A DNA stretch of 64,000 nt. Origin: an uncultured Gammaproteobacteria bacterium (GTDB lineage Bacteria > Patescibacteriota > Microgenomatia > JAMCZE01). Below, one piece after another: positions 17,901 to 49,140 of the stretch. The stretch is taken from contig CAZSSJ010000001.1 in NCBI GenBank assembly GCA_964609775.1, forward strand, positions 22,858 to 86,857, in the 5' to 3' direction. The notes below the pieces were generated by a model that worked only from the letters and a program-made list of their open reading frames with translations, had not been told where the DNA came from and made no database searches. A program made the position numbers and the translations under genes. Position 1 is the first letter of the stretch. Each line of letters starts with the position of its first letter.

Positions 17901-20900
17901 TCAACTTCGGGATTGAGCCGGTTTGTGATTGACAAGAACGGAAATGTGGGGATCGGGAGTTCGGCTCCAGGATACAAACTGGATGTTTCGGGAACGGCTC
18001 ATGTCACCGGAGCAGTCACTTTAGATACGGCCCTGACGGTGGCCAATGGGGGGACGGGAGCCCAGACATTCACAGACAACGGCGTGCTCTTTGGCAACCT
18101 GACGGCCGCCATTGGAGCGACGGCCGAAGGAGCGACCGGGCAGTGCCTCATCGGGAACACCGGGAGCGCGCCATCATGGTCAGCATGTACCACGGCCTCA
18201 GGGCAGTTGTGGCAGGAAGCTTTGGGAGTGGTCGCGCCGCTGAACATCACGGATTCCCTGATTATTGGGAAGATCGCGACACCCAGCGGGGCCATTACCT
18301 CGGGCAGCATGCAGATTTACGGGGTGAACAACCTGACCCCGGTCGCCTCTATTTCGGGGGTCAGTGCGGTGGCGGCGCTCATCGTGGACAACACCGGCGG
18401 GGATGTCTTCACGGCCAGCACTTCGGGACTGACCAGATTTGTGATTGACAAGAACGGCAACGTCGGGATTGGGACAACGAGCCCGGATTATCCACTTGTA
18501 GTAGTAGGGACAGCTTCTGACGGAACACGGACACTTGAGGTAAAAAATTCAGTTGCTGGTAGTATATCTAATTTCCAAGTAACAGGTGATGGTGTCAACG
18601 CTCGCCTTATGGCGTTGTCTAGTTCGTATTCATCATCCGGGGCTTATGCTGCTGATACAGTTGTCTTAGACGACGATCAGGGTTACGCTGCTGGCCTTAC
18701 ACTACTTGCCCGTAATTCAAGTGGGTATATCCGAATGTTTACAGGCGGTTTTGATGACGGAAATGAGCGTCTGAGAATTAACAGCACTGGCAACGTCGGC
18801 ATCGGGACGACGAGTCCGGTGGGACTGCTGCATGTTCAGGGACAATGCGTCATTGCCGGAACAAAAATTAAAAGAAGAAAGAAGAAAGAAAAAAGAAGAA
18901 AGCAAGACACTGCCGGAACGGGGCCGGATCCGGTCGGCGATTGGGACTATGAAGATGTTCCCATCGAACAGATCGAACCGGATGATGAGATTCTTTCCCT
19001 AAACCAGGAAAAGGGCCAGTTTGAGTGGCACAAGGTGGAACAAACCATGAATAAAGGACTCCTGCCGGCCTTGGCTCTGACAACTTCTACTGGAAAGAGA
19101 ATTGTCACGACGGCAAAACATCCATATTTGGCGATCGATCGGCCGGAAACTACTCAAGGGACTTTTGAGGTGGATCAATCAATCAAGATCGAGAATTTGG
19201 GGGCGGCAAGCATTATAGGGTTTGCCCTGGGGAAACTAGCTTTTGCCGTTAAGCTGCCGCAGAAGGATAAGAAGATTATTCTCGCTCGTTATCAGAAGAA
19301 GAACCAAAAAGATGTTTTTGCCCATGAGACTTTTGCCCGATGTGTGGTTGCCGCCTTTAAGATTGCCCGGATTTATCCAGCGAGAATTGCTCTCGATGAA
19401 GAATACACCAGTTACTTCCGAAGAATCGAGAGCGTTATTAAGGAAAGTTTCCCTGACAGCGAGATTTTTCAAACCAACCTTAAGGATGGTTCCGCCGCCC
19501 ACAAAAAGGTCTGGGCTGTTAATAGGGGAATTTTAAGAGAGGATGCTGTTCTAAGTTTGGAATCGGGAGAATTAAAAGAAAGGCCGGGGGTTAAATCAAC
19601 CTTCAGAATGCCTTTGCCCCTGGTTGGTTACAGGGGGACCAGTCATCCACACGGCCTTTACTATGGAGAATTCTACTCCACGGAGCGGGAATTGTCAAGA
19701 GCAAAGTGGGTTAAGGCCGCGGAGGTTAGGAAAGGGATGTGTGTGGCGACGGAGGATGGTTTTGAGAAGGTCACAGGGATTTCCGATGCGGGGCAGGTGG
19801 CGATGTATGATCTGCAAATTGCCAACACTCACAATTTTGTGGCCAATGGGATTGTGGCGCATAACACGACGGGGAAGGCCCTGGTGGATCTGAACACCAC
19901 CGGGGACCAGGCGGTGTTCACCGCCAGTGTTTCCGGAAACACCAAGTTTGTGATTAACAATTCAGGACAGGTGGGAGTGGGAACCGGAGCAAACAACAAC
20001 ACGCTGCTGGCCGATGTGGATTTGCGGACGCTGACAAACACGGTTCCGGTGGCTTCAATTGCCGGGAGCACGGGGGTGGCGGCTCTGGTTGTGGACAATA
20101 CAGCCGGGGATCTTTTCACCGCCTCGTCAAGTGGGCTATCAAGATTTGTGATTGACAAGAACGGGAATGTGGGGATTGGGACGGCGGCGCCGACGGCTCT
20201 GGTGTCTTTAGCTAACTCGAACTATACGACGCAAAACATGTTGAACGTGGCGGGGACGTCGACAGGGTTGACGACCGGGTCACTGGCGAGTTTTGACTGG
20301 AGTCCGACGGACTGGTCGACCTCGAGCGGGAATTTGGTGAATATTAATCTTGGCAGTTTGGCCGACACGACGGGAAACATCTTTAATATTTCCGATGACG
20401 GCAGCTCGATCTTCTCGGTTTCGCCGCAGCAGATTGTCAACTCGTTGCCAACGTCATTTAATGCCGCCGGAGATGTGGCGATTGCCTATGACATTAATTT
20501 CACCAATCCGACGGCATCATACATTAAATCTGCTGCACCCATGTATTTGCAGGCAGGGGAGCTATTTAATTCCTCGGATTTGACGTTGAAGACCTTTAAC
20601 AAAGGCTTGATTGTTCTGGATCCAGATGAAGCGGTCACAATTGATGGGGCGGCTTCTGTGTCGGGGCAGCTCATGGTCGGCAGTACGACAGCGGCGCCGG
20701 CGCAGTTTGGCAAGTTCTATGTGACGGACTCTAACACGGCCACTTCTTCAGCCTTCATTGAAAACACTAACACAGCTGCAGCAATTTCGGGTTTGGTCAT
20801 TAAGCTGGGGAGTACGACCCTGGACACCACCTCGCATTTTGTTAATTTTCTTGATTTGAACGGCAAGATGATTGGCAACATTCGGGCAGCTAACACGACA

Positions 20901-21923: not shown

Positions 21924-21971
21924 GCTGGCTTGCCCTGAGCTTGTCGAAGGGTGGATTGTGAATTAACGAAA

Positions 21972-24900
21972 ATGAAACAAATTAGACGGATTAGACTAAT
22001 TGGTCTAATTAGGCCAATTTGGGCAAAAAAATTAGGGATTTTTTTGCTCTCGGCGACGATTATCGTCGCCGGACTGCTCGTTTTCTGGGTGAACAGGAAC
22101 GGGGGGAAGGTCGAGGCGGCGTGGTTTGATGATTCCTGGGGCTACCGGCAGATTATAACTCTCACCAATAACGGGTCGACGCAGACGGATTATCAGGTGC
22201 AGGTGGTGGTGGGGACGGGCGATCTTATTGCCGCGGGGAAGATGCAATCTGACTGCAATGATTTGCGGTTTACGGATCTTTCCGGAAAGGTCCTTTCCTA
22301 TTGGACGGAATATTGCCGGTCAGGGGCGGGGAAAAATTCCTCGGTTTGGGTGACGATTCCCACCCTGACAACGACACCGGCACCTATATATATGTATTAC
22401 GGAAACCCGTCTGCGGCAACGGCGAGCACGTTTCGGTCTTTGCCGACGGGGATTAATTTGGGGGATGGGGCCGATGGGGCGGCGACTGTTTCGGGGACGG
22501 TGAACTTTAATTCGACGACGATTTCCGGACGGACGGAGGCTGATGGAGTCAATCCGGCGTCAACGGTGCTGACGGCGCTGGGGAGCACGACGATTACGGC
22601 GACGGCTGCGGCGGGGCTTTCCGTCGGGGATGAGGTTTTGATTATTAATCTTCAGGGGACGACTTCTGATTACGGAAATGTGGGAAAGTATGAAACGGCA
22701 AGGGTGACGGCGATTAATGGAGCTGTTTTAACTCTTAACCATCCTCTTGTTAATGCCTATGATGGGACGACACAAAAAATCATGGTCCAGCGGGTGCCGA
22801 ACTATTCGAGCGTGACGGTGTGCACGGGCAGCGCCGATCCGGTGGCCGGGTGTGCTTCGGCAGGAACGTTGAATCCTGCATCGTGGTCGAGCGGAAACGG
22901 GACAGGAGGGGTGGTCATGCTACGGGCCACGGGGACGGTGAATGTGGCGGCGTCGGGGAGCATTTCTGGAGCAGGTTTAGGTTATGCGGGAGGGGCGGGA
23001 GGCCCGGCGGGAGCAAAGGGCGGATATGGGGGAGACAGCTATGATGGGGATAATCCGCGAGGCGGATGTGCGGATTCAAGCTGTACGGCCGGGGTGGGTG
23101 GCGGGAAATCTGGGTCGGCGACCGGAGCTTCGCCAAATAGCGGTGGAACCCGCGGTGGAGGCGGCGGAGGGGGATCTGACGGGGCGACTAACGGGACTGG
23201 CGGCGGGGCGGCCGGAGGCGGCGGGGGTTATGGCGGAGGCGGAGGCGGAGGCGGAGCCAATGGTGATGGCTATGTGGCTCTTCCAAGCACTGCGAATGGA
23301 GGAACGGGCGGAAGTGGAGGCTCAACAGGAACTTCTGCGGGTGGTGGAGGAGGGGGTTGCCGGGACAATGATGGTGATAACACAGCCGGGGCCAACGGGG
23401 GAAATGCCGGCAGTGCCGGGTCAAATGGTAGTGCGAGCTGTTCGGGGACGGCAGGCACGGGGGGCGAAGTAGGGTCGGGAGCAACGAGCGGAAGCGGGGG
23501 CGGAGGGGCTGGAGGAGGTCTTGGTTCGGGCGGCGGGGGCGGAGGCGGAGGAACGTATGGCACGGCGGCTTTGACGACAATTTTTTTGGGAAGCGGCGGC
23601 GGGGGCGGTGGAGGGACAACAGCAGGAGTGGACTTTGCCGGAGCAGCCGGGGCGGCAGGCGGAGGAATCGTTTACATCAGTGCCGGGACAGTGACAGTCG
23701 CCGGGGCAGCTTCGGCCAACGGAGCCGATGGGACCACTCCTGACGCGCAAACTGGCAGTGGGGGGGCCGGGGCCGGAGGATCAGTTTTTATTTCAGGAGC
23801 CACAGTGACGCTGGGGAGCAGCTTAGTTTCAGCAACCGGAGGAGCTGCAGGTGCAGCTGATCAGGCAATCGCCGGATCCGGCGGAGGCGGAGTAGGACGG
23901 ATTGCGGTGAATTATTCAACGAGCACCGGTTCGACTAATCCTTCAGCTGGATCCACCTCCACATTGCCGGTCGCCGGGTCGCCATCGACGGAAGAAAAAG
24001 GCAACGGGCCGGTGGCTTTCTGGCACCTTGACGACGGCCAGGGAACAGTAGCCCAAGATTCAACGACGAATGGAAATGCTGGGACACTTTCGGGAACAAC
24101 TCTGCCCAGCTGGCAGACGGAGGACTTGTGCGTTTCGGGCAAGTGTCTCTATTTTAATGGGATTACTTCCAATGTGACGGCGGGGACAGTGAATGCGGTG
24201 CAAACCGTGTCTTTCTGGGTCAGGCCGGCGAGTGTTTCGGCCTCACTGGTGCAGTTGGCAAGCGGGGTCGATGTTAAAGCGGCTTCAGGAGTAGTCGGGA
24301 CTGACGGCTTTACTGCACCGACGATCTATGTCAACGGGGCCAAGGTGACAGGCAGCTCGGCGACGCCGTTTGCAGCCAGTCAATGGAATTTTGTGACGGT
24401 GACGACGGGGACAGGGATTACAGCAAATGCCATTACCTTGGGGAAAATGCAGACGGGAGTGTTAAACGGGTTTTTGGATGAAGTGAAACTCTATCACTAT
24501 GCCCGGAGTGCGGCGCAGGTGAAGGCAGATTATGCCAATTCGGGAATTAATAAAGGGACGGGAAGTGTTCTGGGGGCGGATCCGGATCAAGTGAATCGGA
24601 CGTTATCAAATGGGCTAGTTGGGTATTGGAAGATGGATGAAAGCGGGGCTGGTAGCTGCACAGGCGGAGCCAATGACAGCTGCGATTCATCCGGCAACGG
24701 CAATGACGGCAACTGGGTTAATCAAGCAGCGAACACGGGAGGAAAGTTCGGTAATGGAGTTATCTTTGACGGCGTCAATGACACGGTCGATGTGGCCCAA
24801 TCCAGCAGTCTTAATGGAGTAACCGATGACATTACCGTCTCGGCCTGGATCAAAACCACCGCTACAGGCGGGGGTCTGACCGACAATACATTTATCAGCA

Positions 24901-27900
24901 AAGAGACAGCGGGTTGCGGTTCAGGCTATAGCGACTGGTTTATCCATTTATTAAACGGCACCGTCAAGTTCTGGACATCCGGATCAGAGTGTACGGCCGT
25001 GGCATCCAATGCCACAGTCAATGACGGCAGTTGGCATCTCGTGACCGTGACACGAAAAAGATCAGACGGCAATCATATTATCTATATTGACGGGCAGTAT
25101 GATACTTCAAAAATCGGAAATACCGGTTCAATCGGCAACGCGGAAGATCTTTATTTCGGAACCATAAACGGAACGGCATCAGACTATACCGGTAGTCTCG
25201 ACGAAGTCCGGATCTATAACCGTGTCCTGTCTCCTGCCGAAGTCTCCATTCTTTACCAGTTTGCCGCCGGGCCGGTGGGGTATTGGAAGATGGAGGAAGG
25301 GGCGGGAACAACGGCCGCGGATTCCAGCGGCAATGGCTATACCACGGCGGCATTTACGGGAAACACCGCTTGGACAGCGGGGAAATTTGGCAAAGGGCTG
25401 ACCTTTGACGGAGACGGAGATTACGCCAGCATTACGGATGCTTCCGGAGTAAAGATTGATCTTGGGGCAACGACCGATTCATATACAGTCTCCGGGTGGG
25501 CAAAGACGTCGACCGATGGTTCGGGTAATGCCACGATCGTGGAGAAAAATGATGGATCTGGAGCCTATCCGTTTAGCTTGTATCTGAATTCTTCGGAACA
25601 TGCCTGTTTTCAGATTTCCGACGGGACCAATGCGCCTTCGGCCTGCGGATCGACGGCTTTGAGTGATGGCGCTTGGCATTATCTCACGGGCGTGCGGGAT
25701 GTTGGAGCAGACAAGGTCTATATTTATGTTGACGGGGTGCAGATCAATTCGGCGACGGATTCGACCACGGCCACAGCGGCCAATGGCGATGACACATCAA
25801 TCGGAAACGGCGGAACCTCTTATACAACGAATGATTTTACCGGACAAATTGACGAGGTGAGGATTTACAACTATTCGCGCAGCCCAAAACAAATTATAGA
25901 AGACTTAAATGTCGGGCACCCGACTGGGGGAAGTCCAATCGGCACAGCACATGGCTACTGGAAATTTGATGATGGGCGGGGAACGACAGCTTATGATTCC
26001 GGGGCCAGCCCGAATAATGGAGTTCTAACCAGTATGAACTTAGTGACCTCAGTTGGTATTTCCGGCTGGAACCCGAATGGGAAGTTTAATAAGGCATTAT
26101 CGTTTGACGGGAGCAATGATAACGTGGACTTCGGGGATCTTTCCTACACTGAAGGTGCTTCCAGTTTAAGCTGGAGTTTTTGGGTTAATCCGAATTCGGT
26201 CGCGGCGACGAAGTGTTTGTGGTGTAAATATAATAATGCGGCAACAGAGCGGTCGTGGGCGATTGAAAGCGGAACAACTAATGCTTCGGCGATTAGGGCC
26301 ACGCTGCCAACGAGCACGACGGAAGCGGATGGCACAACATACGGAGAAACACCGACCGGACAACTTAGTGTCGGAGTTTGGACCCACGTGGCAGTGGTCT
26401 ATGACGGAAATGCTTCAGGTAATTTGAACCGGCTGAAGATATATATTAATGGTGTTAAGCAGAATCTGGCTTTTGCCGGGACGATTCCGGCAACGACTCA
26501 GGCCACCACTTCCACGGCTAACGCTGGCGAAAGCTCCGATGGAGCCAGAAATTTTTCAGGCACACTTGATGAGATGAAGATCTACGGCGGGGCGCTGACA
26601 GAGGCTGAAGTGAAGTTGGATTATAACCGAGGGTCGGCAATTTCTTTGGGAGTTTTGGGAACTTCGACGGCCGACGGGAAGACCGCGTCAAGTTCGGCTG
26701 GGTCGGCTTATTGCCTGCCGGGAGATACCACAACGTGTAACCCGCCGGTGGCGGAGTGGCCTTATGAAGAAGGCCAGGGGACGAGCGTGGCTGACACGAG
26801 CGGAAACAACAACACGATGACTCTAAGCGCCGCCAGTCAATGGACGCATGGAGTCATCGGTCGCGGCATCACCTTCAACGGCACGAGCGACACGGCTGAT
26901 TACGGAGATGTGAATAATAAATTTGACAGCGTGACCAAGCTCACGGTGACGGCTTGGTTTAAGAAACCAAGCGTCGGGGGAAAAGTTTATATTGCCACGA
27001 AGGGCAGCGGCGCCAACGCGACACGTTTTGAACTGTCGGCTTTAACTGATGGTTTGATCTATTTTGTTGTCAGAAACGGGGTGTTATCGACAGCGTCCAC
27101 ATATAGCAATGACACGAATTGGCACCATGTGGCGCTGGTTTTTGATGGGACCCAAACGGGCAATGCCAATCGGTTGAAGGGGTTTATTGATGGCACGGCG
27201 CGCGCTCTGACTTTCTCAAACACTGTTCCGAGCTCGACGGGAAACTATGGCACCGCGAAGCTTTATTCCGGCTATCATGAATGGTTTAACCTGTATTCGG
27301 CCGGATATGTTGACCAGATGCGGGTTTTTGATTACCCCTTGACAGCGGCTCAAGTGGCCAACAACTATAACCGCGGCCTGCCTGCATCCTGGTGGAAGTT
27401 TGATGAGTGTCAGGGAACGGTAGCCAATGACTCAATCGCAACCATATCGGGTACGCTAAACGGTGGGACACCGGGAGACTGTAATACCGCAAGTACTGCC
27501 TGGGCCAATGGAAAAACAGGAAAGTTTAATTACTCATTAAAATTTGGCACTACACCCGATCTTACTACAGTGACTTCGACCAGTACGTATCCTTTTAGCC
27601 AAGTCAGCAGCCCTCCGGTATCATGGGGCGGATGGTTTTATCCGACTAGTTCGGTAAACAGTCAGGCATTTATCGATAAAAAGGATCAATTCCGGCTTTA
27701 CACCGACGGATCCGGAAATGCAATCTGCGGGGTGGCAACGGCTGCCGGATCCTACACCGATGCCTCATCGGTGACAGCTCCGATAACCTTAAATACCTGG
27801 AATCATGTACTTTGCACTTATGATGGTACCACTAGCTTGAAAACCTATGTAAATGGAATATTAAAAAATACTTCAACCATCTCTGTCGATATGTTTCTCA

Positions 27901-28067
27901 CGACAACCACATTGTATGTAGGCCAACTCAATGACGCTTCTAACCAGTTTACAGGCCAGGCAGATGATATAAAAATATGGGCATATTCTTTGACTGCTTA
28001 CCAGGTGCGGATGGAGTTTAACCAAAGCAGTGCTGTTAGGTTTGGGCCTAGTTCCGGGGCTCCCTGA
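21972..28067 (+). CDS. Large membrane-anchored DUF2341 / Gly-rich / multi-LamG (concanavalin-like) protein
   Basis: The ORF opens at 21951 (GTG), but the ATG at 21972 gives MKQIRR...LGIFLLSATIIVAGLLVFWV. DUF2341-like WGYRQIITL...DLRFTD...VWVTIP...IYMYYGN. Many LamG repeats ending ...DEVRIYNR.LS..EV. Confidence 0.85.
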   Translation: MKQIRRIRLIGLIRPIWAKKLGIFLLSATIIVAGLLVFWVNRNGGKVEAAWFDDSWGYRQIITLTNNGSTQTDYQVQVVVGTGDLIAAGKMQSDCNDLRFTDLSGKVLSYWTEYCRSGAGKNSSVWVTIPTLTTTPAPIYMYYGNPSAATASTFRSLPTGINLGDGADGAATVSGTVNFNSTTISGRTEADGVNPASTVLTALGSTTITATAAAGLSVGDEVLIINLQGTTSDYGNVGKYETARVTAINGAVLTLNHPLVNAYDGTTQKIMVQRVPNYSSVTVCTGSADPVAGCASAGTLNPASWSSGNGTGGVVMLRATGTVNVAASGSISGAGLGYAGGAGGPAGAKGGYGGDSYDGDNPRGGCADSSCTAGVGGGKSGSATGASPNSGGTRGGGGGGGSDGATNGTGGGAAGGGGGYGGGGGGGGANGDGYVALPSTANGGTGGSGGSTGTSAGGGGGGCRDNDGDNTAGANGGNAGSAGSNGSASCSGTAGTGGEVGSGATSGSGGGGAGGGLGSGGGGGGGGTYGTAALTTIFLGSGGGGGGGTTAGVDFAGAAGAAGGGIVYISAGTVTVAGAASANGADGTTPDAQTGSGGAGAGGSVFISGATVTLGSSLVSATGGAAGAADQAIAGSGGGGVGRIAVNYSTSTGSTNPSAGSTSTLPVAGSPSTEEKGNGPVAFWHLDDGQGTVAQDSTTNGNAGTLSGTTLPSWQTEDLCVSGKCLYFNGITSNVTAGTVNAVQTVSFWVRPASVSASLVQLASGVDVKAASGVVGTDGFTAPTIYVNGAKVTGSSATPFAASQWNFVTVTTGTGITANAITLGKMQTGVLNGFLDEVKLYHYARSAAQVKADYANSGINKGTGSVLGADPDQVNRTLSNGLVGYWKMDESGAGSCTGGANDSCDSSGNGNDGNWVNQAANTGGKFGNGVIFDGVNDTVDVAQSSSLNGVTDDITVSAWIKTTATGGGLTDNTFISKETAGCGSGYSDWFIHLLNGTVKFWTSGSECTAVASNATVNDGSWHLVTVTRKRSDGNHIIYIDGQYDTSKIGNTGSIGNAEDLYFGTINGTASDYTGSLDEVRIYNRVLSPAEVSILYQFAAGPVGYWKMEEGAGTTAADSSGNGYTTAAFTGNTAWTAGKFGKGLTFDGDGDYASITDASGVKIDLGATTDSYTVSGWAKTSTDGSGNATIVEKNDGSGAYPFSLYLNSSEHACFQISDGTNAPSACGSTALSDGAWHYLTGVRDVGADKVYIYVDGVQINSATDSTTATAANGDDTSIGNGGTSYTTNDFTGQIDEVRIYNYSRSPKQIIEDLNVGHPTGGSPIGTAHGYWKFDDGRGTTAYDSGASPNNGVLTSMNLVTSVGISGWNPNGKFNKALSFDGSNDNVDFGDLSYTEGASSLSWSFWVNPNSVAATKCLWCKYNNAATERSWAIESGTTNASAIRATLPTSTTEADGTTYGETPTGQLSVGVWTHVAVVYDGNASGNLNRLKIYINGVKQNLAFAGTIPATTQATTSTANAGESSDGARNFSGTLDEMKIYGGALTEAEVKLDYNRGSAISLGVLGTSTADGKTASSSAGSAYCLPGDTTTCNPPVAEWPYEEGQGTSVADTSGNNNTMTLSAASQWTHGVIGRGITFNGTSDTADYGDVNNKFDSVTKLTVTAWFKKPSVGGKVYIATKGSGANATRFELSALTDGLIYFVVRNGVLSTASTYSNDTNWHHVALVFDGTQTGNANRLKGFIDGTARALTFSNTVPSSTGNYGTAKLYSGYHEWFNLYSAGYVDQMRVFDYPLTAAQVANNYNRGLPASWWKFDECQGTVANDSIATISGTLNGGTPGDCNTASTAWANGKTGKFNYSLKFGTTPDLTTVTSTSTYPFSQVSSPPVSWGGWFYPTSSVNSQAFIDKKDQFRLYTDGSGNAICGVATAAGSYTDASSVTAPITLNTWNHVLCTYDGTTSLKTYVNGILKNTSTISVDMFLTTTTLYVGQLNDASNQFTGQADDIKIWAYSLTAYQVRMEFNQSSAVRFGPSSGAP

Positions 28068-28151
28068 CCATAGTGAAAGCGAGCTTTGGTTGCGGTCCTC
28101 GCACGCTCGACAGCTGAGGGTGAATGTTGTTTTCAGCTCGCGGCTGCGGGC

Positions 28152-28202
28152 CTAAACCAAGGAAGCGCAGTTAGATTTGGACCCAATACGGGGGCGCCTT
28201 AA
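28152..28202 (+). pseudogene. Orphan 3' remnant of a LamG-type gene (LNQGSAVRFGPNTGAP-stop)
   Basis: Translates to the same tail as the true C-terminus at 28020-28067 (FNQSSAVRFGPSSGAP), with mostly synonymous differences and a TAA stop. Confidence 0.6.
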
Positions 28203-29320
28203 GTTAGAAATTCAGAAAAGTTTTCTTTGGTGACCGGGGTCCAGGTGGAGTTAGGATAGGTTTGACGCCAGGTCACTGGAGGAGAGTTTCTGCTCTTTTG
28301 CCATTTGATTTCAAAGGCGTTAAGAGTTCCTTGGGATTCTTCAATATAGTCGATTTCTTGTTTAGACCAGGTTCTCCAGAAATAAGTGTTTGGGGTTAAA
28401 CCGAGATTGCCGTTTCTTTTGAATCTTTCGGTGATAAGGAAATTTTCCCAGAGGGCGCCAGTATCGGAGCGCAGTGCAAGAGGGTTAAAGTTGTTGATGA
28501 TTGCATTTCTGATGCCGGTGTCCCAGAAGTATATCTTCCGAGATTTGTTAATTTCTTTTCTTAGGTTCCTTGAGAGTGGAGGAAGACGGAATATCACAAA
28601 AGCCAACTCAAGAAGTCTCGTGTAGGAAGAGATAGTTTCCTTGTCTACCTCGAGAAGGTTGGCCAGCTCGGTGAAATGGACCTCGCTGCCAATTTGGAGA
28701 GCGAGGGCTTGCAGAAGCTTTTCTAAAAGCTCTGGTGCTTTTAGTTGACGGTATTCTAAGGAATCTTTATAAAGGTAGTTTTTGTAGATCGATTTGATGG
28801 TTTCCTCGGCGGACTGCCCTCCCAGGCTGACAATTTCCGGGTAGGAACCATAGATCATTCTTGTTTCTAGAAGTCTAGCTGTTTCGATTTGGTCAGGATA
28901 GATTTCGGCCAGTGAGAGCGGGCTGAGGATAAACTCATAAGTGCGGCCGGTTAAGGGCTCCTTAATTTTATTGGAAAGATCGAAAGAGCTGCTACCCGTG
29001 GCAATTACTTGCAGCTTGGGGGCGTTATCGACAAGGAGTTTGAGGGTTAGTCCGATGTTTAGCACTCTTTGGGCTTCGTCGATGATGACGAGTTTGTTTT
29101 TGCCGATTAAGCTTTTGAGTTCAGAGGAGGTTTTGTCCGTGAGAGCTCTTCTTACATCTGGTTCGTCACAGTTTAAATAAGAACTTTCTTCGGGGAATTT
29201 CTTCTTAATCTCTTGGACTAGAGTGGTTTTGCCCACCCGTCGCGGGCCGTAAATTATGATTACCTTTCCTCTAAAGAGGTGGTCTTCAATTCGTGGCTGG
29301 ATTGATCTCTTAAATAGCAT
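28199..29320 (-). CDS. AAA_14/DUF4143-family ATPase
   Basis: 373 aa. Walker A GPRRVGKTT, Walker B LVIIDEAQ, C-terminal DUF4143-like region. Confidence 0.75.
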   Translation of the reverse strand: MLFKRSIQPRIEDHLFRGKVIIIYGPRRVGKTTLVQEIKKKFPEESSYLNCDEPDVRRALTDKTSSELKSLIGKNKLVIIDEAQRVLNIGLTLKLLVDNAPKLQVIATGSSSFDLSNKIKEPLTGRTYEFILSPLSLAEIYPDQIETARLLETRMIYGSYPEIVSLGGQSAEETIKSIYKNYLYKDSLEYRQLKAPELLEKLLQALALQIGSEVHFTELANLLEVDKETISSYTRLLELAFVIFRLPPLSRNLRKEINKSRKIYFWDTGIRNAIINNFNPLALRSDTGALWENFLITERFKRNGNLGLTPNTYFWRTWSKQEIDYIEESQGTLNAFEIKWQKSRNSPPVTWRQTYPNSTWTPVTKENFSEFLT

Positions 29321-29343
29321 GATTTCGGTGGTTTTACTCTCCT

Positions 29344-29372
29344 AAATTACTATAATTTAGGCGGTTTGTCAA
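29344..29372 (-). promoter_or_regulatory. Candidate promoter of the ATPase gene
   Basis: Minus strand reads TTGACA-N17-TAATTT, followed by AGGAGAG and then the ATG at 29320. Confidence 0.4.
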
Positions 29373-29393
29373 GGACCAAGAAAGTCTCGCCTT

Positions 29394-29507
29394 GGTCCTG
29401 CTCCAGAGGTGAAGGTGTGGAACTATGCCTTGACCCCATATCAAGTGAGGACTGAATATAACCAATCGGGTGCAGTGAGATTTGGCCCAACAACTGGTGC
29501 TCCCTAG
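29394..29507 (+). pseudogene. Orphan 3' remnant of a LamG-type gene (GPAPEVKVWNYALTPYQVRTEYNQSGAVRFGPTTGAP-stop)
   Basis: Aligns with GQADDIKIWAYSLTAYQVRMEFNQSSAVRFGPSSGAP at the end of the 2,038-aa gene. TAG stop and no upstream gene body. Confidence 0.7.
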
Positions 29508-29521
29508 ATTGTTGGGATGCC

Positions 29522-29555
29522 TTTCCTGAGGGGTGGTCTCGGGAAGAAATTTTTC
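29522..29555 (+). terminator. Hairpin plus T-run downstream of the LamG remnant
   Basis: TTCCTGAG-gggtggt-CTCGGGAA stem-loop followed by gaaattttt. A homologous hairpin is at 49114-49140. Confidence 0.5.
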
Positions 29556-29618
29556 TCTCTTGACAGGGCTAGTTGGGCCTGTCATTCTTAATTAAATAAG
29601 CAGCCTGGAGTTGTTCTC

Positions 29619-32600
29619 TTGAAAAAACATCTAAGCTTAATCATCTTCTTTGTCTTCATCTTTTCAGGCTTTTTCGTGTTTGCGCCGGCGCCGCTTTGGG
29701 CTTCCGGGGCGACCTATTATGTGGCGACTTCCGGCAGTGACACTAATTCCGGCACGCAAAGTGCGCCCTGGGCCACGCTCCAAAAAGCCCTCGGGAGCAT
29801 TTCCTCCGGCGACATGGTCATCATCCGCGGAGGCATCTATCGTCAGCCCGGCAGCATGATTGGCTACCCCTACAAATCCTTCGGCCCAGCCGGAACGGCG
29901 GGCAATTTGACCACCTTCAAATCTTATCCCGGAGAACGAGTTATCATCACCGGTCCAAACAACGACCTTATCCAAATTGCCGTTGCCGACTATGTTCGGA
30001 TTGACAGCCTCTGGTTTGGCGGGGATTATGTCACCGGTATCAAAGGTCCGGTGTTTCAAATTTCCGGCGTCGGCAAAGAAATTGTCAACAACACCTTTTT
30101 CAATTGGCCCTCGGGCCCGCTGATGGGTTGGGGAGAAAACGTCCTTTTTCAAGGAAATCGGCTCGTCAACACCGGCCGGGATGTGCACACCGCGGGAACC
30201 TATTTCTCTTCGGGATATGCGACTGACGGAAAGTTGTCTAATCACATCATTGCTGACCACAACATCTACATTGGCAACAACATTTCCGCCGGTTATGGCT
30301 TCCAGTTTTGGCATGGCGGCAAGTCCATGATCGCGACCCGAAACTTTGTGGCCGGTCATTCCTGGGGGAGCGCCATAGACGGAGACAGCCAGCTGTGGGC
30401 TAATAATTTTTATTGGAAGCAAACCGGAAAAGATTCAGACATTGACACCGTCATTAATCCCTATGGTCCTCTGTCCGGTGGTTCTAATCAAAAGTATATC
30501 AATAATATCTTTGGGCCCTCCGCCTGGTTTTATTATGCTAACGCCTGGAAAGCCACTCAGGCAGAAATCGATACCAAACTATCTAATAATGCTTTCACTG
30601 ACGATCCCTCCTATCTGCCGGGATCCGGTGGTCCCACCTGTAAAAAGCCCTGCGGAGTAAGTCCATACGTCTTTCATCAAGGGCAAGAAAGTGCGGAAAT
30701 TGGTATCAGTGCGGCAGCTCTGGATAAGGCAGTTGGGACAATCAGTCAGGCTTTTCTAAACCCGCTGGACACTATCTATAGCGACACCACGGTTGAATCA
30801 AGTTTTCAACAGATTCGCTCGGCGCAAGTTCCAACCACGAGCCCCCTATACCGTAAAGGACTGCCTTGGTTCGGACAAGCCATCGACATTGGCTGGAACG
30901 TTCCGGCGCCAGCCTCCGTTTGCGACTATTGGGCCGCTTTCACCAAGCTTGGTCTCAAGCACTATGATAAATACGGTAGTGTTCTTCCTGACTATTCCTG
31001 CACTAGTCCTACACCACCTCCGCCGCCACCGCCACCACCGCCGCCGTCGACAGTGACGGGCGACGTTAATGGTGACGGCAAGGTTGATTTTGCCGACCTC
31101 CAAGCCCTGCTCTTAAACATCCTGGGGACAGTCACGGCGCAACTTGATCTCATTGTCGATGGCAAAATTAATTCGTTGGACTTTGCCGTTTCCTCGGGAG
31201 AAATCATTAATGCTAATCCGCCGCCGCCCGGCGACACTCAAGCTCCAGTCACTGTCATCACCGCGCCAGCTGGTGGTCAAACGGTCAGTGGGACTTTTTC
31301 CGTCGTGGCGAGCGCGACGGATAACGTCGGGGTGACAAAAGTGGAGTTCTATATTGACGGGGCGATTAAAAACACTGACACGGGTGTTCCCTACGGATTT
31401 AATCTGGACACGACCCAACTGACTAATGCCGCGCACACGGTTTATTCCAAGGCCTATGACGCTGCCGGCAACGTAGGGAGCTCATCAAGCATCACTTTCA
31501 CGGTCAGCAACACCGCCCCGCCGCCCCAAACCATGACTTTGAATTTGTCCTCGTATTTTGGCGGCTCGGGTGAAGACAGTGCTCGCGACGTGGTCACCGA
31601 TTCCCAAGGCAATGCCTACGTGGTGGGCGGCCTGGGATCAGCAACGATCCAGACAACCCAAACTTTTAAAAAAACCGGTACCTGCGCTGTTTCCTGGACG
31701 GGTAACGGCGGCAAGGACATGGACGCCTATGTCATGAAAATCAGCCCGACTAACCAGCTTGTCTGGTCAACCAGGATCGGCGGGCCGTGCTATGACCGGT
31801 CGTATGGCGTGGAGCTCGATTCCTCGGGAAACATCTACTTGACCGGCCGGGCCGGGCCGAATTTCCCCACGACCAGCGGGACTTTCCAGCCGGGTTTCTA
31901 CGGCTTTAATTCCGGCAGCGCCTATGGTGAGCAGAACGCTTTTGTGGCCAAAGTTTCCCCAACGGGAGCTCTTGTTTGGGCGAGCTACGTCGGCTCGACA
32001 GACGGCAACCGGGACATCGCCGTTGACGGCAGTGGGGATGTCTATATTGGCACCGGCTTTAATTCGGCGACGCAAAAGCCACTAAGCGGGCTTGCCTGGT
32101 TTAGCTCGGCCATTAGCAAGGCTTTTCAAGTGGTGAACAATCGCGGTTTTGAGGGCTTGATTGTCAAAATTAAGTCTGACGGGTCGCAGGTGGTGTGGGC
32201 CAGTTTCTACGGCGGCACGGGTAATGAGGGAGCCACGCCGTCAATCAGAGTGGATAGGAACGGCTACGTTTATTACCTCACCAACACAACTTCGACTAAT
32301 CTGCCCGTAAAAAACGCTTTCAAATCGACTCTCGGGGGGACGATCGACATGGCCCTCGTTAAATTCCATTTTGACTCGGGGGTGGGGAAACTGGTCACCG
32401 ACTATTCGACCTATTTTGGCGGCAGTGATGTCGAGTTTACCGAAACCCACGGTCTGGCCGTGGACGTATCGGGAAACGCCTATATAGCCGCGACCACCAA
32501 ATCTACGAACCTGACGACGACCACGGGGGCTTACCAACGAACCTATGGCGGCTCAGGGGGAAGCGGAAACTATCCGGGGGACGGCTTTGTGGCGAAATTT

Positions 32601-36357: not shown

Positions 36358-37566
36358 ATGCAAGCCTTAATTGAAACCTACCATCGTTTACTTTCGGAAA
36401 TAGTACCGTCCTACTGGCGCCGGTTCTATGACGAGTTTGTCATGGATAGCCGGATGGTCGGCATTGTTGGGGCAAGAGGGGTGGGAAAGACCACGTTTCT
36501 TGTTAGCTATCTGCGGGAACACTACGGCGGTTCGGACAGGTCACTCTACGTCTCGGCGGACAACCTCTATTTTGTGGAGCATACTTTGATTGAAGTGGCG
36601 GATCAATTTGTCAAGGACTTCGCCGGGGAGATTTTGTGCATTGACGAGATTCACCGCTATAGGAATTGGAATCAGGAACTGAAAAATATTTACGACTCCT
36701 ACCCTAAACTGTCAGTAATATTTTCAGGGAGTTCGAGTGTTGATCTGGTGAAAGGGAAGTATGATCTATCCCGCCGGGCTAACTTGAAAACGATGTATGG
36801 CTTTTCCTTCCGGGAATATCTGGAGGTTTGGGAGAAAGCTAAATACCCGATTCTGACGCTGGCGGAAATTCGCACTAATCACACGATGTATGCTCAGGAA
36901 TTAATGAAGACGCCAAAAATCCTTGGTTATCTGAAACAGTATCTTAAGGGAGGTTACTACCCGACGTTTTTGGAAATGGGGAGCTACGGCGCCTATCAAA
37001 GCAGCCTGCGGGGGATTATTGACAAGATTATCTTTGAAGATATCAGTAGTTTTTATTCTTTAAATACCTCTAATTTGGACACTCTTAAGAAGATAATTTA
37101 TTTCTTTGGGACTGCCCAGCCCGGGACTGTTAACATCAACCGCCTGGCCGGAAGTTTAAAGAAGGACTATACCACAATTGCGGAGTATGTGCAGATTTTA
37201 AGAGATACCGGACTTCTTCGTTTTCTCCGGCGGAACAAACAAGGCCATGCTTTAGTGCGGGATGCAGAAAAGATTTATCTGGACAATCCGAATCTCCTTT
37301 ACGCTGTTAATCAGGAGGTAGGGAAGGAGCCACTGGTTGGAGTTTCGCGGGAGCTCTTTGTGATTGGCAGTTTGGAAAACGCAGACTACCACGTGTTTTT
37401 TTCTGAGGCGGCGGACGTTGAATGCGACGGGCACCTTTTTGAGATTGGGGGGAAGAACAAAACCGCCTCGCAGTTGAAAGGGAAAGAAGGATATTTAATT
37501 AGTGATGATGTCCTTGTTGGCGACTCCAGAACCATTCCCCTTTATTTGTTTGGGTTTTTGTCTTAA
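36358..37566 (+). CDS. AAA_14/DUF4143-family ATPase (second copy)
   Basis: 402 aa. Walker A GARGVGKTT, Walker B ILCIDEIH, DUF4143-like C-terminus. Confidence 0.75.
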   Translation: MQALIETYHRLLSEIVPSYWRRFYDEFVMDSRMVGIVGARGVGKTTFLVSYLREHYGGSDRSLYVSADNLYFVEHTLIEVADQFVKDFAGEILCIDEIHRYRNWNQELKNIYDSYPKLSVIFSGSSSVDLVKGKYDLSRRANLKTMYGFSFREYLEVWEKAKYPILTLAEIRTNHTMYAQELMKTPKILGYLKQYLKGGYYPTFLEMGSYGAYQSSLRGIIDKIIFEDISSFYSLNTSNLDTLKKIIYFFGTAQPGTVNINRLAGSLKKDYTTIAEYVQILRDTGLLRFLRRNKQGHALVRDAEKIYLDNPNLLYAVNQEVGKEPLVGVSRELFVIGSLENADYHVFFSEAADVECDGHLFEIGGKNKTASQLKGKEGYLISDDVLVGDSRTIPLYLFGFLS

Positions 37567-37621
37567 TCGGTGGTTGATTTTTCAACTGGGGGTTTTTGTT
37601 TGGCCTCGAAAGATGAGGATT

Positions 37622-37670
37622 GGGAAATGAAAATGTTCCATGAGTTGCGATCGCGTTTTATGGAACAAAA
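37622..37670. repeat. Palindromic element copy 1 (GGGAAATG..ATGTTCCATG..GCGATCGC..TTATGGAACA)
   Basis: The 8-bp arms TGTTCCAT and ATGGAACA flank a central GCGATCGC. Lies between two convergent gene ends. Confidence 0.8.
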
Positions 37671-37736
37671 ATGCAAGATACAGAGTGGGGAAGTTGAGGA
37701 AAAAATTACCTTGTTGGCACTAGTGTGCAAGTTGGG

Positions 37737-38414
37737 TTATTTTAGGATTTGGGGTCTTAAGCTTCGGGCGAGGGATTCATAGAATTTCTCCATGGCTTTT
37801 TGGTCAAAGGGGACGAGCATTTTGGGAAGATTCGTTATTTCCGCGGCCTTGAGGAAGCTTTGGGCCGTTTTAATAGTGTCTGTGGTGACGACGAATTTTT
37901 GGTCAGCACTGGTGAGGAGATCGGCTGCTGTCCAGTTTGTTTCTTTGATAATTAAGTAGAGGTCGACGTAATCTCGTTCACGGGCTTTGGTGCGGATCGT
38001 GTGGATCTTGTTGACGGCAATGTCGTAGAGGCTATCAATTTCGAGGCCGCGCCACCTGATTCCCGGTTTTAGACGGTTGAAGGAGTAGTGGTTAAAGTCG
38101 ACCTTGAAACGGCTGTTGTCAGGGTAGCGGAAGAAATATGTGTAGAAACCAAGGTCGTCATCGACGCTAACGTGACGGTATTCGAGGATACTTTGATTCC
38201 TTTTGATCCATTCAGTAACACGGTCGCCATTAAAGGAGCGATCGGTGAAGAAATCCAAATCGTAGGATTCCCGGTGGTGGAGGTACCAGCTGGCCAGACC
38301 GGTGCCGCCGCTTAAGTAGAAGTTATCGAGGAGATATTTTTCCTGAAGTACCAGGTCCAGAAATTGCTTCTGTCGAAGGCTAAGTCCTTCTCCTTGCGCC
38401 AGGGTTTGTTCCAT
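37737..38414 (-). CDS. Nucleotidyltransferase AbiEii/AbiGii-toxin-like protein (copy 1)
   Basis: FYLSGGTGLASWYLHHRESYDLDFF NTase motif. Paralog of 39317-39991. Confidence 0.6.
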   Translation of the reverse strand: MEQTLAQGEGLSLRQKQFLDLVLQEKYLLDNFYLSGGTGLASWYLHHRESYDLDFFTDRSFNGDRVTEWIKRNQSILEYRHVSVDDDLGFYTYFFRYPDNSRFKVDFNHYSFNRLKPGIRWRGLEIDSLYDIAVNKIHTIRTKARERDYVDLYLIIKETNWTAADLLTSADQKFVVTTDTIKTAQSFLKAAEITNLPKMLVPFDQKAMEKFYESLARSLRPQILK

Positions 38415-38608: not shown

Positions 38609-38719
38609 TAAATAGATTATACCTCTTAAGGAAAAGCGGGGAGGGAGGGGCGGATTTGGCAGGAAGGTTGTCGCAGCAATCTGCCGTGTGGCAGTCTGTC
38701 GGCCCAGGGAAAGAGAGCT

Positions 38720-39004: not shown

Positions 39005-39039
39005 AGCCTTATTCTCTCTCTCTCTGCTTAATTTGTCAA
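39005..39039 (-). promoter_or_regulatory. Shared promoter module, copy A: TTGACA-N17[(GA)n]-GAGAAT-N6-ATG
   Basis: Minus strand reads TTGACAAATTAAGCAGAGAGAGAGAGAATAAGGCTATG. Confidence 0.6.
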
Positions 39040-39991: not shown

Positions 39992-40045
39992 GCAGGGTTG
40001 GGGCAAATTGCTTCGGAAAGCAGGGGCAGGTGGCTGACAGACACC

Positions 40046-49044: not shown

Positions 49045-49140
49045 TTGGAGTGAGTTAATTTAACCGTATTGGGGTACGGATCTGGAGGGCCATCAGGTAG
49101 GTTGCTGCGACGACCTTCCTGAGGAGTGGTCTCAGGAGGG
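49045..49140 (+). pseudogene. Decayed LamG 3' remnant plus conserved hairpin
   Basis: About 80% identity by eye between 49098-49140 and 29505-29546, including tag-(a/g)ttg.tg...TTCCTGAGG.GTGGTCTC.GGA. The upstream gagttaatttaacc resembles gagtttaacc of the true gene end. Confidence 0.45.

What the first reader, a model, noticed from the sequence alone, without database searches (positions are those of the whole stretch)
28020..29507. Three LamG-gene C-terminal tails in a row that differ mostly at synonymous sites and use three different stop codons
The tails are NQSSAVRFGPSSGAP-TGA (real gene end, 28020-28067), NQGSAVRFGPNTGAP-TAA (28155-28202) and NQSGAVRFGPTTGAP-TAG (29460-29507, extending upstream to ...VKVWNYALTPYQVRTEY). 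Codon-by-codon differences are mainly third-position (GCT/GCA/GCA, AGG/AGA/AGA, GGG/GGA/GGC, CCT/CCC/CCA). So the orphan tails derive from distinct paralogs that evolved under protein-level selection, not from a recent duplication. An AAA ATPase gene sits between the second and third tails. A fourth decayed tail with the same downstream hairpin is at 49045-49140. LamG gene 3' ends therefore look like recurrent recombination or insertion junctions, or silent cassettes.
Basis: seen in the sequence. Interest (0 to 1): 0.5.

Follow-up and report, generated by a model that had tools for sequence, protein, structure and literature searches.

The report
Displaced gene tails from nested insertions
Two short orphan copies of the end of a giant surface-protein gene are most likely the gene's former ends, pushed downstream when selfish DNA inserted at that conserved end and brought its own replacement end; the same pattern recurs in related uncultured bacteria.

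Summary
The three tails (NQxxAVRFGPxxGAP plus TGA, TAA and TAG) are real, sit at the stated coordinates, and are identical in 8 independent assemblies of this Gottesmanbacteria population. They differ mostly at third codon positions (pS 0.69-0.79, pN 0.10-0.18), so they derive from long-separated functional LamG gene ends. The "fourth decayed tail" near 49.1 kb is not supported; only the roughly 40-nt segment after the stop codon, including the hairpin, recurs there.

A tail-pattern scan of public genomes and metagenomes shows that this peptide is the conserved C-terminus of large LamG proteins in Microgenomates. It also shows that the DNA just after it is a hot spot for small selfish genes: a minimal GIY-YIG nuclease, an IS200-like/RAYT transposase, toxin-antitoxin pairs, and an NYN gene. 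Orphan-tail arrays occur in at least six other distinct contigs.

The clearest evidence for mobility is a 315-nt unit made of a tail, a GIY-YIG gene and the start of a second tail. It is 315/315 identical in two LamG genes whose flanks are only 64-72% identical or unrelated.

Best reading: nested insertions that each bring a replacement tail. T3 plus its terminator is the ancestral end, T2 and T1 arrived later, and the AAA_14/DUF4143 gene is cargo. The closest analogue is homing-endonuclease insertion with C-terminal duplication in fungal mitochondria. The "silent cassettes" idea is rejected.

The parts
21951..28067 (+). Intact 2038-aa surface-protein gene with DUF2341 and six Laminin_G_3 domains. 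It is the host gene whose 3' end is the insertion site.
   Evidence: ORF list, translation, Pfam.
28020..28067 (+). T1, the tail currently in use (NQSSAVRFGPSSGAP, stop TGA). It is followed by in-frame TAG and TGA, so read-through is excluded. Inferred to be the most recent arrival.
   Evidence: tail HMM 64.6 bits.
28068..28154 (.). 87-nt spacer between T1 and T2, of unknown origin. Its right end plus the first 8 nt of T2 (CTGCGGGCCTA|AACCAAGG, 28144-28162) is 19/19 identical to the same junction in an unrelated contig (L034) that also has the order real tail, short spacer, orphan tail. Inferred to be the body or remnant of a small inserted element.
   Evidence: Folding is not significant (z = -0.9).
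28155..28202 (+). T2, an orphan tail (NQGSAVRFGPNTGAP, stop TAA) that starts exactly at the N-Q codons. Inferred to be a former gene end displaced by the T1-plus-spacer insertion.
   Evidence: HMM positions 19-34, 33.2 bits.
28199..29320 (-). AAA_14 + DUF4143 ATPase gene (373 aa), antisense to the LamG gene. Its stop codon overlaps T2's stop within the palindrome CTTAAG. It is cargo, not the agent of insertion.
   Evidence: Pfam. More than 7990 homologues at 58-72% identity. Homologues sit in unrelated contexts without tails or flanking duplications.
29321..29393 (.). Upstream region of the ATPase gene with two perfect 9-bp hairpins (29341-29361 and 29372-29399). The 3' arm of the second hairpin is already LamG-remnant sequence (codons L-G-P).
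   Evidence: DNA fold z = -3.9, with 0 of 200 shuffles folding as well.
29382..29507 (+). T3, an orphan made of the last LamG strand plus the tail (..LGPAPEVKVWNYALTPYQVRTEYNQSGAVRFGPTTGAP, stop TAG). Inferred to be the ancestral 3' end of the gene.
   Evidence: 68% nucleotide identity to 27984-28065. HMM positions 2-34, 70.6 bits. pS 0.81 against pN 0.22 versus the live gene end.
29522..29546 (+). Terminator-like hairpin followed by a T-run. It is the only plus-strand terminator-like site downstream of the LamG gene that lies outside coding sequence. Inferred to be the ancestral LamG terminator.
49116..49138 (+). Second copy of the same hairpin, between convergent genes. It is not preceded by a tail.

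Best explanation
T2 and T3 are former 3' ends of the LamG gene. They were left behind by at least two nested insertion events at the conserved tail-coding sequence.

In this clade the last 34 codons of large LamG genes (..DDVxIYNYxLT....YNQGSAVRFGPxxGxP-stop) are highly conserved and occur in several copies per genome. Small selfish DNA segments land there. Each segment carries its own copy of the part of the tail that lies downstream of its insertion point. The host gene therefore stays intact, and the resident tail is pushed downstream as an orphan.

Proposed order in the window:
1. The ancestral gene ended in T3 followed by the terminator hairpin.
2. An incoming segment supplied the present ..IKIWAYSLTAYQVRMEF plus T2 end. 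The antisense AAA_14/DUF4143 gene either came with it or was inserted later.
3. A small element supplying T1 plus the 87-nt spacer then landed at the N-Q boundary of T2.

Because each incoming tail had been evolving as the working end of a different LamG gene (a paralog or a gene in another genome), the copies differ mainly at synonymous sites.

What is shown: the anatomy, the selection signature, the recurrence elsewhere, and the recent mobility of one tail-plus-GIY-YIG unit.

What is inferred: the order of events; that cleavage of the tail by the minimal GIY-YIG nuclease, followed by repair copied from an occupied LamG gene (homing with co-conversion), drives the spread; and that the other genes (ATPase, NYN, toxin-antitoxin pairs) hitch-hike as cargo.
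For: Selection signature and stability
- pS is 0.69-0.79 against pN 0.10-0.18, and differences are concentrated at codon position 3.
- The arrangement is fixed and identical in 8 assemblies.
- T3 alone is followed by a terminator-like hairpin.

The tail is a conserved C-terminus
- The tail pattern found 24 genome loci and 44 metagenome loci, almost all Patescibacteria/Microgenomates, giving 52 distinct gene-end peptides.
- Internal LamG repeats match only profile positions 1 to about 28, never the AVRFGPxxGxP end.

Orphan-tail arrays elsewhere
- L014: tail, RAYT, tail, toxin-antitoxin pair, tail.
- L020: tail, toxin-antitoxin pair, tail, GIY-YIG, GIY relic ending in a tail.
- L034: tail, spacer, tail.
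- L036: tail, GIY-YIG, NYN, long tail.
- L044: four tails with a toxin-antitoxin pair and a RAYT.

Association with selfish genes
- All 8 hits to the 94-aa GIY-YIG lie within 100 nt after a tail stop codon.
- About 11 RAYT genes lie within 210 nt after one.
- In 5 loci the GIY-YIG ORF ends in frame in a displaced 'FGPxxGxP-stop'.

Recent mobility
- L057 and L075 share a 315/315-nt identical unit (AACCAAGG..tail..TAG, ATG..GIY-YIG..GGGCTTTGGCCC). Their left flanks are 18/30, 43/60 and 54/84 identical, and their right flanks are unrelated (20/60).
- L035, from the same metagenome as L057, has L057's left flank (57/60) but a different tail end and no GIY-YIG.

Non-random boundaries
- Orphan left edges cluster at three points: profile positions 1-4 (DDV), 19-20 (YNQ) and 27 (FGP).
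- L044 T1 and T3 are 81% identical upstream of the FGP codons and about 98% identical after them.
- The junction CTGCGGGCCTA|AACCAAGG is shared by the window and L034.
- The same NYN cassette end is joined to tail remnants at different positions in L036 and L059.

Host machinery
- The window has ruvABC and comEA/comEC, but no integrase, recombinase or reverse transcriptase.
Against: - No GIY-YIG or RAYT gene lies in the window, so the agent for this particular array is not identified.
- The window's three tails share no identical block that would mark a crossover.
- No empty-site relative of this locus was found.
- The 94-aa GIY-YIG is a bare catalytic domain. Its closest solved relative is UPF0213/BH0048, and its match to the group-I-intron endonuclease model is below threshold. 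It has no recognisable DNA-binding domain, so site-specific cleavage is unproven.
- A published survey judged GIY-YIG genes in CPR rRNA insertions not to behave as homing elements (PMC11270868).
- Many selfish genes sit after the stop codon with no orphan tail. Part of the pattern may therefore be simple intergenic accumulation.
- Tandem LamG paralogs exist (L011, L027, L052, L058), so relics of deleted paralogs cannot be excluded for T3.
Confidence: 0.62

Rival explanations
1. The orphans are relics of deleted paralogs. The locus once held two or three tandem LamG genes. The bodies of the downstream copies were deleted or overwritten (for example by the ATPase gene), leaving only their last 16-40 codons.
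For: Tandem LamG genes that each end in a tail occur in other contigs (L011/L067, L027, L052). The tails are as diverged as paralogs would be.
Against: Across loci the orphans never keep more than about 34 codons. Their left edges cluster at three discrete positions, which random deletion does not predict. The T1-spacer-T2 junction is 19/19 identical in an unrelated contig. A tail-plus-GIY-YIG unit is demonstrably mobile. Recombination between conserved paralog ends would fuse the tails rather than leave orphans.
Confidence: 0.2
2. The orphans are silent cassettes for programmed switching of the protein's C-terminus, in the manner of a shufflon or of orphan toxin modules.
For: Only the arrangement itself: several alternative ends lying downstream of one large surface-protein gene.
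Against: The three peptides are nearly the same (11-12 of 15 residues), so switching gives no diversity. The copies are direct repeats, not inverted ones. The window has no recombinase, invertase or reverse transcriptase. Eight assemblies from different samples are identical. Pairwise nucleotide identity of only 69-73% is too low for efficient homologous exchange.
Confidence: 0.03
3. The tails are kept because the DNA or RNA itself is functional, for example as a recombination site like an integron attC, as a terminator, or as a small-peptide gene.
For: AACCAAAGC...GCTTTGGTT brackets T1. The orphans retain intact stop codons.
Against: Conservation has a period of three nucleotides, which is codon-like rather than structure-like. 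Folds of the T1 and T2 regions are no better than shuffles (z = -1.3 and +0.7). There is no Rfam hit. No start codon or upstream sequence is conserved between the window and L034 beyond the junction.
Confidence: 0.05
4. The array is an assembly or binning artefact, in which reads from several LamG genes collapsed or were chained together.
For: Conserved repeats are a classic cause of misassembly.
Against: The 1.9-kb region is 100% identical, with the same flanks, in 8 contigs assembled independently by different projects and from different samples.
Confidence: 0.01

Closest known systems
Free-standing homing-endonuclease genes inserted at the 3' end of fungal mitochondrial genes, with duplication of the C-terminal coding segment. 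Examples are atp6 and cob in Endoconidiophora resinifera (PMC6279837). From my own knowledge, the Allomyces macrogynus atp6 hybrid gene (Paquin, Laforest and Lang, PNAS 1994) is another case.
   Same: A nuclease ORF sits next to a conserved gene end. The incoming segment supplies a replacement C-terminus, and the resident C-terminal segment survives downstream as a partial duplicate. Nuclease ORFs then decay and nest within one another.
   Different: The setting here is a bacterial chromosome, and the target is a multi-copy family of giant surface-protein genes rather than a single-copy respiratory gene. The nuclease is a 94-aa bare GIY-YIG domain that takes its own last 8 codons and stop codon from the displaced tail. 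Unrelated cargo (RAYT, toxin-antitoxin pairs, NYN, AAA_14/DUF4143) shares the same site. Arrays reach up to four tails. Nuclease activity has not been tested.
Intron-less homing of free-standing endonuclease genes in T-even phages (seg and mob genes; for example mobE, PMC2790892, listed).
   Same: A nuclease gene lies between or beside conserved genes and spreads by cleavage of the unoccupied allele, followed by repair that co-converts the flanking DNA. The sharp identity block with diverged flanks in L057 and L075 looks like such a conversion tract.
   Different: Phage homing does not duplicate the target's coding end. In addition, no cleavage data exist for the case here.
Integrative elements that insert into the 3' end of tRNA or protein genes and carry a replacement 3' end in their attP site (established knowledge).
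   Same: The target gene stays intact. The displaced 3' end remains at the far junction, and tandem insertions build arrays of displaced ends.
   Different: The inserts here have no integrase. They are single genes of 0.1-1.2 kb. The repeats are diverged at synonymous sites instead of sharing an identical core.
Orphan C-terminal modules downstream of rhs and cdiA toxin genes (established knowledge).
   Same: Fragments of the 3' part of a giant surface-protein gene accumulate downstream of it.
   Different: In those systems the orphans carry different toxin domains plus immunity genes, behind a conserved junction motif. Here the orphans are the conserved motif itself and carry no variable payload.

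Membership tests
Homing endonuclease element with duplication of the target's 3' end | A nuclease gene lies immediately beside the conserved target sequence. | tested here: inconclusive
   Met in related loci: all 8 GIY-YIG hits lie within 100 nt of a tail stop codon. Not met in the window itself, which has no GIY-YIG.
Homing endonuclease element with duplication of the target's 3' end | An identical element is present in different target copies whose flanks are diverged, with a related unoccupied allele also present. | tested here: met
   L057 and L075 share a 315/315-nt unit. Their left flanks are 64-72% identical and their right flanks are unrelated. L035 shares L057's left flank (57/60) but lacks the unit. 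L035's tail end is not identical to the displaced one in L057, so it is a close relative rather than the exact empty site.
Homing endonuclease element with duplication of the target's 3' end | The encoded enzyme cuts the unoccupied target site specifically. | not testable with these tools
   This needs biochemistry. The protein is a bare GIY-YIG domain (Pfam). Its nearest solved relative is UPF0213 BH0048. Its score of 20.7 bits is below the 56-bit threshold of the group-I-intron endonuclease model.
Homing endonuclease element with duplication of the target's 3' end | A partial copy of the target gene's C-terminal coding segment lies downstream of the insert. | tested here: met
   Window T2 and T3, and loci L014, L020, L034, L036, L044, L018, L057, L070 and L075.
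Diversity-generating retroelement (template and variable repeats at a gene's 3' end) | A reverse transcriptase lies nearby, and the repeat differences are confined to adenines of the template. | tested here: not met
   No reverse transcriptase was found among the ORFs scanned across the window. The differences fall at third codon positions and involve all four bases.
Integron cassette array (attC sites) | An integron integrase is present, and imperfect palindromic attC sites separate the cassettes. | tested here: not met
   There is no integrase. The tails fold no better than shuffles. Their conservation is codon-periodic.
Shufflon or invertible C-terminal cassettes | Inverted repeats are present with a site-specific invertase, and variant arrangements exist in the population. 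| tested here: not met
   The tails are direct repeats. There is no invertase. The 8 assemblies are identical.
REP-associated tyrosine transposase (RAYT) and REP elements | A Y1 transposase gene is flanked by short palindromic REP sequences. | tested here: inconclusive
   In related loci the protein matches Pfam Y1_Tnp (40 bits against a cut-off of 23) and is flanked by the palindrome GCAAGGCGACGCCTTGC. However, it scores only 28.7 bits against the NCBIfam RAYT cut-off of 80. None is present in the window.
Laminin_G_3 (LamG) surface proteins | A Pfam PF13385 match above threshold. | tested here: met
   367 bits across six stretches. A model of the last domain gives a beta-sandwich with pLDDT 70-89, and the last 11 residues of the tail are below 50.

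The most novel reading that the evidence does not exclude
Microgenomates (CPR bacteria) may harbour a previously undescribed class of chromosomal homing cassettes. Their target would be the DNA encoding the conserved C-terminal peptide (NQGSAVRFGPxxGxP) of giant LamG surface proteins. The minimal version would be a roughly 315-nt unit made of a replacement tail plus a 94-aa GIY-YIG domain with no DNA-binding domain, which borrows its own last codons and stop codon from the displaced host tail. Other selfish genes (RAYT, toxin-antitoxin pairs, NYN, AAA_14/DUF4143) would ride along between tail copies. The orphan-tail arrays would then be a readable stratigraphy of successive invasions.
Probability: 0.4. 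Interest if true: 0.65.

Novelty: new variant of a known kind. Interest (0 to 1): 0.5.

Why it matters
If this reading is right, it extends a strategy known from fungal mitochondria and phages into bacterial chromosomes of the Candidate Phyla Radiation. In that strategy a selfish nuclease gene invades a conserved gene end and carries a spare end with it.

It also identifies the 3' end of giant LamG surface-protein genes as a specific landing pad where defence-type and selfish genes accumulate. That could explain why some CPR contigs break at these sites. It marks the 15-residue tail as functionally important, because every invader has to restore it. It offers a very small GIY-YIG protein with a defined candidate target for biochemical testing.

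For annotation, it warns that short tail-ending ORFs downstream of LamG genes are relics, not genes.

Tried and rejected
1. Empty-site search. Homologues of the downstream 1124-aa gene include no close orthologue outside the same population, so no pre-insertion allele of this locus could be found.
2. The ATPase as the agent. Its close homologues (58-72% identity) lie in unrelated contexts, with no tails and no flanking duplications. I treat it as cargo.
3. The fourth decayed tail at 49045-49097. It is rejected by alignment against shuffles and by the tail HMM.
4. attC-like or other hairpin structure in the tails. Folds are not better than shuffles. There are no Rfam families and no tRNA genes in the window.
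5. Stop-codon read-through from T1 into T2. It is excluded by the in-frame TAG and TGA directly after the TGA.
6. A phage vector. No viral contig carries the tail pattern.
7. A remnant of the GIY-YIG or RAYT gene in the 87-nt spacer or elsewhere in the window. There is no tblastn hit.
8. The 89% match of T2 to the L059 tail. By my own rough estimate, this is within what multiple testing would produce for a constrained 38-nt segment, so I did not use it.
9. Structure prediction of the last LamG domain plus tail. The alignment had only 3 sequences (mean pLDDT 63). The tail was low-confidence, so no conclusion about its role beyond 'probably an exposed extension' is justified.


Full report
**1. 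The observation**

The window comes from the chromosome of Candidatus Gottesmanbacteria bacterium RIFCSPHIGHO2_01_FULL_47_48, in the Microgenomates group of the CPR. It carries ATP synthase, leuS, ruvABC and comEA/comEC genes.

The ORF at 21951-28067 is intact. It encodes 2038 aa with DUF2341 and six Laminin_G_3 domains, and ends ..ADDIKIWAYSLTAYQVRMEFNQSSAVRFGPSSGAP-TGA.
- T2: 87 nt downstream of that stop, in the same frame but behind in-frame TAG and TGA stops, lies NQGSAVRFGPNTGAP-TAA (28155-28202). Nothing LamG-like precedes it.
- T3: after an antisense AAA_14/DUF4143 gene (28199-29320) lies ..LGPAPEVKVWNYALTPYQVRTEYNQSGAVRFGPTTGAP-TAG (about 29382-29507).

A six-frame motif scan finds only these three tails in 64 kb. 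I built a profile HMM from 52 genuine LamG gene ends collected elsewhere. It scores T1 at 64.6 bits, T2 at 33.2 bits (profile positions 19-34) and T3 at 70.6 bits (positions 2-34). Internal LamG repeats match only profile positions 1 to about 28, never the C-terminal AVRFGPxxGxP part.

The 27800-29700 region is 100% identical in eight contigs assembled by different projects and from different samples. The array is therefore real and fixed in this population.

**2. Selection signature**

Pairwise nucleotide identity of the three 45-nt tails is 31-33 of 45. Differences by codon position are [2,1,9], [3,2,9] and [2,2,10]. By the Nei-Gojobori method pS is 0.69-0.79, which is saturated, and pN is 0.10-0.18. 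For the 96-nt overlap of the live gene end with T3, pS is 0.81 and pN is 0.22.

The orphans are not recent duplicates of T1. Each spent most of its history as the working end of a LamG gene.

**3. The fourth tail**

The sequence upstream of the TAG at 49098 aligns to the tails no better than shuffled sequence does (461 of 1000 shuffles score at least as well; 36% of other window segments also do). It gets no HMM hit.

Only the roughly 40-nt post-stop segment with the hairpin TTCCTGAGGnGTGGTCTCrGGA recurs (29505-29544 vs 49098-49137, 80% identity; two pattern matches against 0 expected). The copy after T3 is followed by a T-run. It is the only plus-strand terminator-like site downstream of the LamG gene that lies outside coding sequence.

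**4. What the tail is elsewhere**

I scanned public genomes and metagenomes with a degenerate DNA pattern for NQxxAVRFGPxxGxP-stop. The scan returned 24 and 44 loci respectively, almost all from Levy-, Roizman-, Woese- and other Patescibacteria. No viral contig matched.

In nearly all of these loci the motif is the C-terminus of a LamG ORF of 700 to more than 2000 codons. It is therefore a clade-wide conserved C-terminus. In a shallow AlphaFold model the last LamG domain forms a beta-sandwich (pLDDT 70-89). The last 11 residues are low-confidence, which suggests an exposed extension. This is weak evidence.

**5. The same arrays occur elsewhere, with selfish genes between the tails**

- L014 (Levyibacteriota): gene end; an IS200-like/RAYT-like gene flanked by GCAAGGCGACGCCTTGC palindromes; a tail starting at AVRFGP; a Gp49/HTH toxin-antitoxin pair; then a third tail.
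- L020: gene end; the same type of toxin-antitoxin pair; an orphan tail; a GIY-YIG gene; then a relic of a second GIY-YIG that ends ..LLLTEFGPAMGSP-stop.
- L034: gene end; a 66-nt spacer; then an orphan tail. The junction CTGCGGGCCTA|AACCAAGG is 19/19 identical to window 28144-28162.
- L036: gene end; GIY-YIG; an antisense NYN gene; then a long orphan tail.
- L044/L049: four tails with a toxin-antitoxin pair and a RAYT.

Across roughly 50 distinct gene ends:
- All 8 tblastn hits to the 94-aa GIY-YIG lie within 100 nt after a tail stop codon.
- About 11 RAYT-like genes lie within 210 nt after one.
- Several toxin-antitoxin pairs start within 30 nt.

**6. Direct evidence of mobility**

In five loci the GIY-YIG ORF starts 1-95 nt after the LamG stop codon and itself ends in frame in 'TGFGPxxGxP-stop'. 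In other words, it ends in a displaced tail that begins at the FGP codons.

L057 and L075 carry a unit that is 315/315 nt identical: AACCAAGGCGCGGCAGTGAGATTCGGCCCGTCCCAAGGGCTCCCTTAG-T-ATG..GIY-YIG..GGGCTTTGGCCC.
- The LamG sequence to the left of the unit is only 18/30, 43/60 and 54/84 identical between the two loci.
- The sequence to the right is unrelated (20/60).
- L035, from the same metagenome as L057, shares L057's left flank (30/30, 57/60). It has a different tail end, followed by palindromes and a RAYT-like gene, and no GIY-YIG.

A unit of tail plus GIY-YIG has therefore moved recently between different LamG genes. The exchange boundaries lie at the N-Q codons and the F-G-P codons.

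Other boundaries agree with this:
- The same two positions, plus the DDV motif about 20 codons upstream, are where orphan tails begin across loci (profile positions 1-4, 19-20 and 27).
- In L044 the two long copies are 81% identical before the FGP codons and about 98% identical for roughly 85 nt after them.
- The NYN cassette of L036 and L059 has the same end joined to tail remnants at two different positions.

**7. Explanation for the window**

The most economical reading is nested insertion in which each incoming segment brings a replacement tail.
- T3 plus its terminator is the ancestral gene end.
- An incoming segment supplied the present ..IKIWAYSLTAYQVRMEF-T2 end. The antisense AAA_14/DUF4143 gene either came with it or was inserted later.
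- A small element supplying T1 plus the 87-nt spacer then landed at the N-Q boundary of T2, as in L034.

The ATPase gene is cargo. It has more than 7990 close homologues. These sit in unrelated contexts with no tails and no flanking duplications. DUF4143 is catalogued as a PD-(D/E)XK nuclease-like domain (PMC3424549).

The window holds no integrase, recombinase, reverse transcriptase or transposase. It does hold ruvABC and comEA/comEC. Spread would therefore depend on host recombination, on DNA uptake, and possibly on a nuclease encoded elsewhere.

What is shown: the anatomy, the selection signature, the recurrence, the non-random boundaries, and the mobility of one unit.

What is inferred: the order of events, and that GIY-YIG cleavage followed by copy-repair (homing with co-conversion) is the driving force. 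The 94-aa protein is a bare catalytic domain. Its nearest solved relative is UPF0213 BH0048, and it scores below threshold against the group-I-intron endonuclease model. Its specificity is therefore unproven.

**8. Rival explanations**

- Relics of deleted tandem paralogs remain possible for T3, because tandem LamG genes exist. This does not explain the clustered boundaries, the shared junction or the mobile unit.
- Programmed C-terminal switching is rejected. The peptides are nearly identical, the repeats are direct, there is no recombinase, and no variants occur among 8 assemblies.
- A structural DNA or RNA role is not supported.
- An assembly artefact is excluded.

**9. Comparison with known systems**

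The closest precedent is free-standing homing-endonuclease ORFs at the 3' ends of fungal mitochondrial genes, which come with partial C-terminal duplications of atp6 and cob (PMC6279837). From my own knowledge, the Allomyces atp6 hybrid gene of Paquin et al. 1994 is another example.

Intron-less homing in T-even phages, and integrative elements that carry a replacement gene 3' end, work in similar ways.

CPR genomes are already known to carry GIY-YIG and LAGLIDADG genes in rRNA insertions (PMC11270868). My literature searches found no report of LamG gene ends as a target. Those searches cover open-access text only.

I therefore rate this as a new variant of a known kind. The window's copy is a fossil array, not an active element.

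Noticed in passing
window 5946-21923 (+): A 5325-aa ORF lies directly upstream of the LamG gene, with a 27-nt gap. It starts with a MerR-type HTH domain and gives at least six Intein_splicing matches plus weaker, below-threshold Hint and PT-HINT matches. It could be a multi-intein or Hint-repeat giant protein.
   Followed up: partly
window 38988-39040, 40276-40330, 43355-43400, 44380-44435, 47087-47195, 48860-48965: A repeated intergenic motif. Read on the minus strand it is TTGACAAATTAAGCAGAGAGAGAGAGAATAA(AGG)..ATG, which is a shared promoter/leader-like sequence in front of several small genes in the toxin-antitoxin-rich region.
   Followed up: partly
window 48407-48918 vs 41000-41514: These two stretches are 66% identical over about 520 nt. 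The first stretch is a diverged, apparently decayed second copy of the 130-aa minus-strand ORF at 41081-41473, which has no Pfam family.
   Followed up: no
window 36358-49200: There is a dense cluster of toxin-antitoxin and defence-type genes: two AbiEii, PIN, HicB-like, DUF6036 nucleotidyltransferase, Fic-HTH, and a second AAA_14 ATPase at 36358-37566. They are interleaved with the core ruvC-ruvA-ruvB genes.
   Followed up: partly
window 29372-29399: A perfect 9-bp hairpin (AGGACCAAG-N10-CTTGGTCCT) sits exactly at the left edge of the T3 remnant. Its 3' arm is LamG-remnant coding sequence, so its 5' arm is an inverted copy of it. This may be a footprint of how the junction was formed.
   Followed up: no
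window 28144-28162 and L034 94-112 (-): A 19/19 identical junction (CTGCGGGCCTA|AACCAAGG) precedes an orphan tail in two otherwise unrelated contigs. The upstream codons (E/D-C-C-..-A-A-G-L) can also be aligned. This hints at a second family of tail-targeting mini-element, or at a lost ORF once fused to the displaced tail.
   Followed up: partly
L020 909-1348: A second, unrelated type of GIY-YIG gene (104 aa) sits where the N-terminal part of the tail-fused GIY-YIG should be. Only the C-terminal relic of the latter survives (..KRFLLLTEFGPAMGSP-stop). One selfish nuclease gene appears to have replaced another.
   Followed up: partly
L060 686-741 (-): An orphan tail (TESNQNAAVRFGPITGTP-stop) lies on a short contig whose other ORFs look high-GC and unlike Patescibacteria. 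This could be a chimeric assembly or a transfer; it is unexplained.
   Followed up: no
window 60005-62037 (+): comEA-like (SLBB + HhH) and comEC (Competence) genes are present. The organism therefore has DNA-uptake machinery that could feed recombination-based spread of the cassettes.
   Followed up: no
L013, L016, L019, L023, L024, L029, L032: Several contigs whose LamG genes end in the Patescibacteria-type tail are labelled 'uncultured Gammaproteobacteria' or 'Pseudomonadales' in their records. These are probably mis-binned or mislabelled MAG contigs.
   Followed up: no
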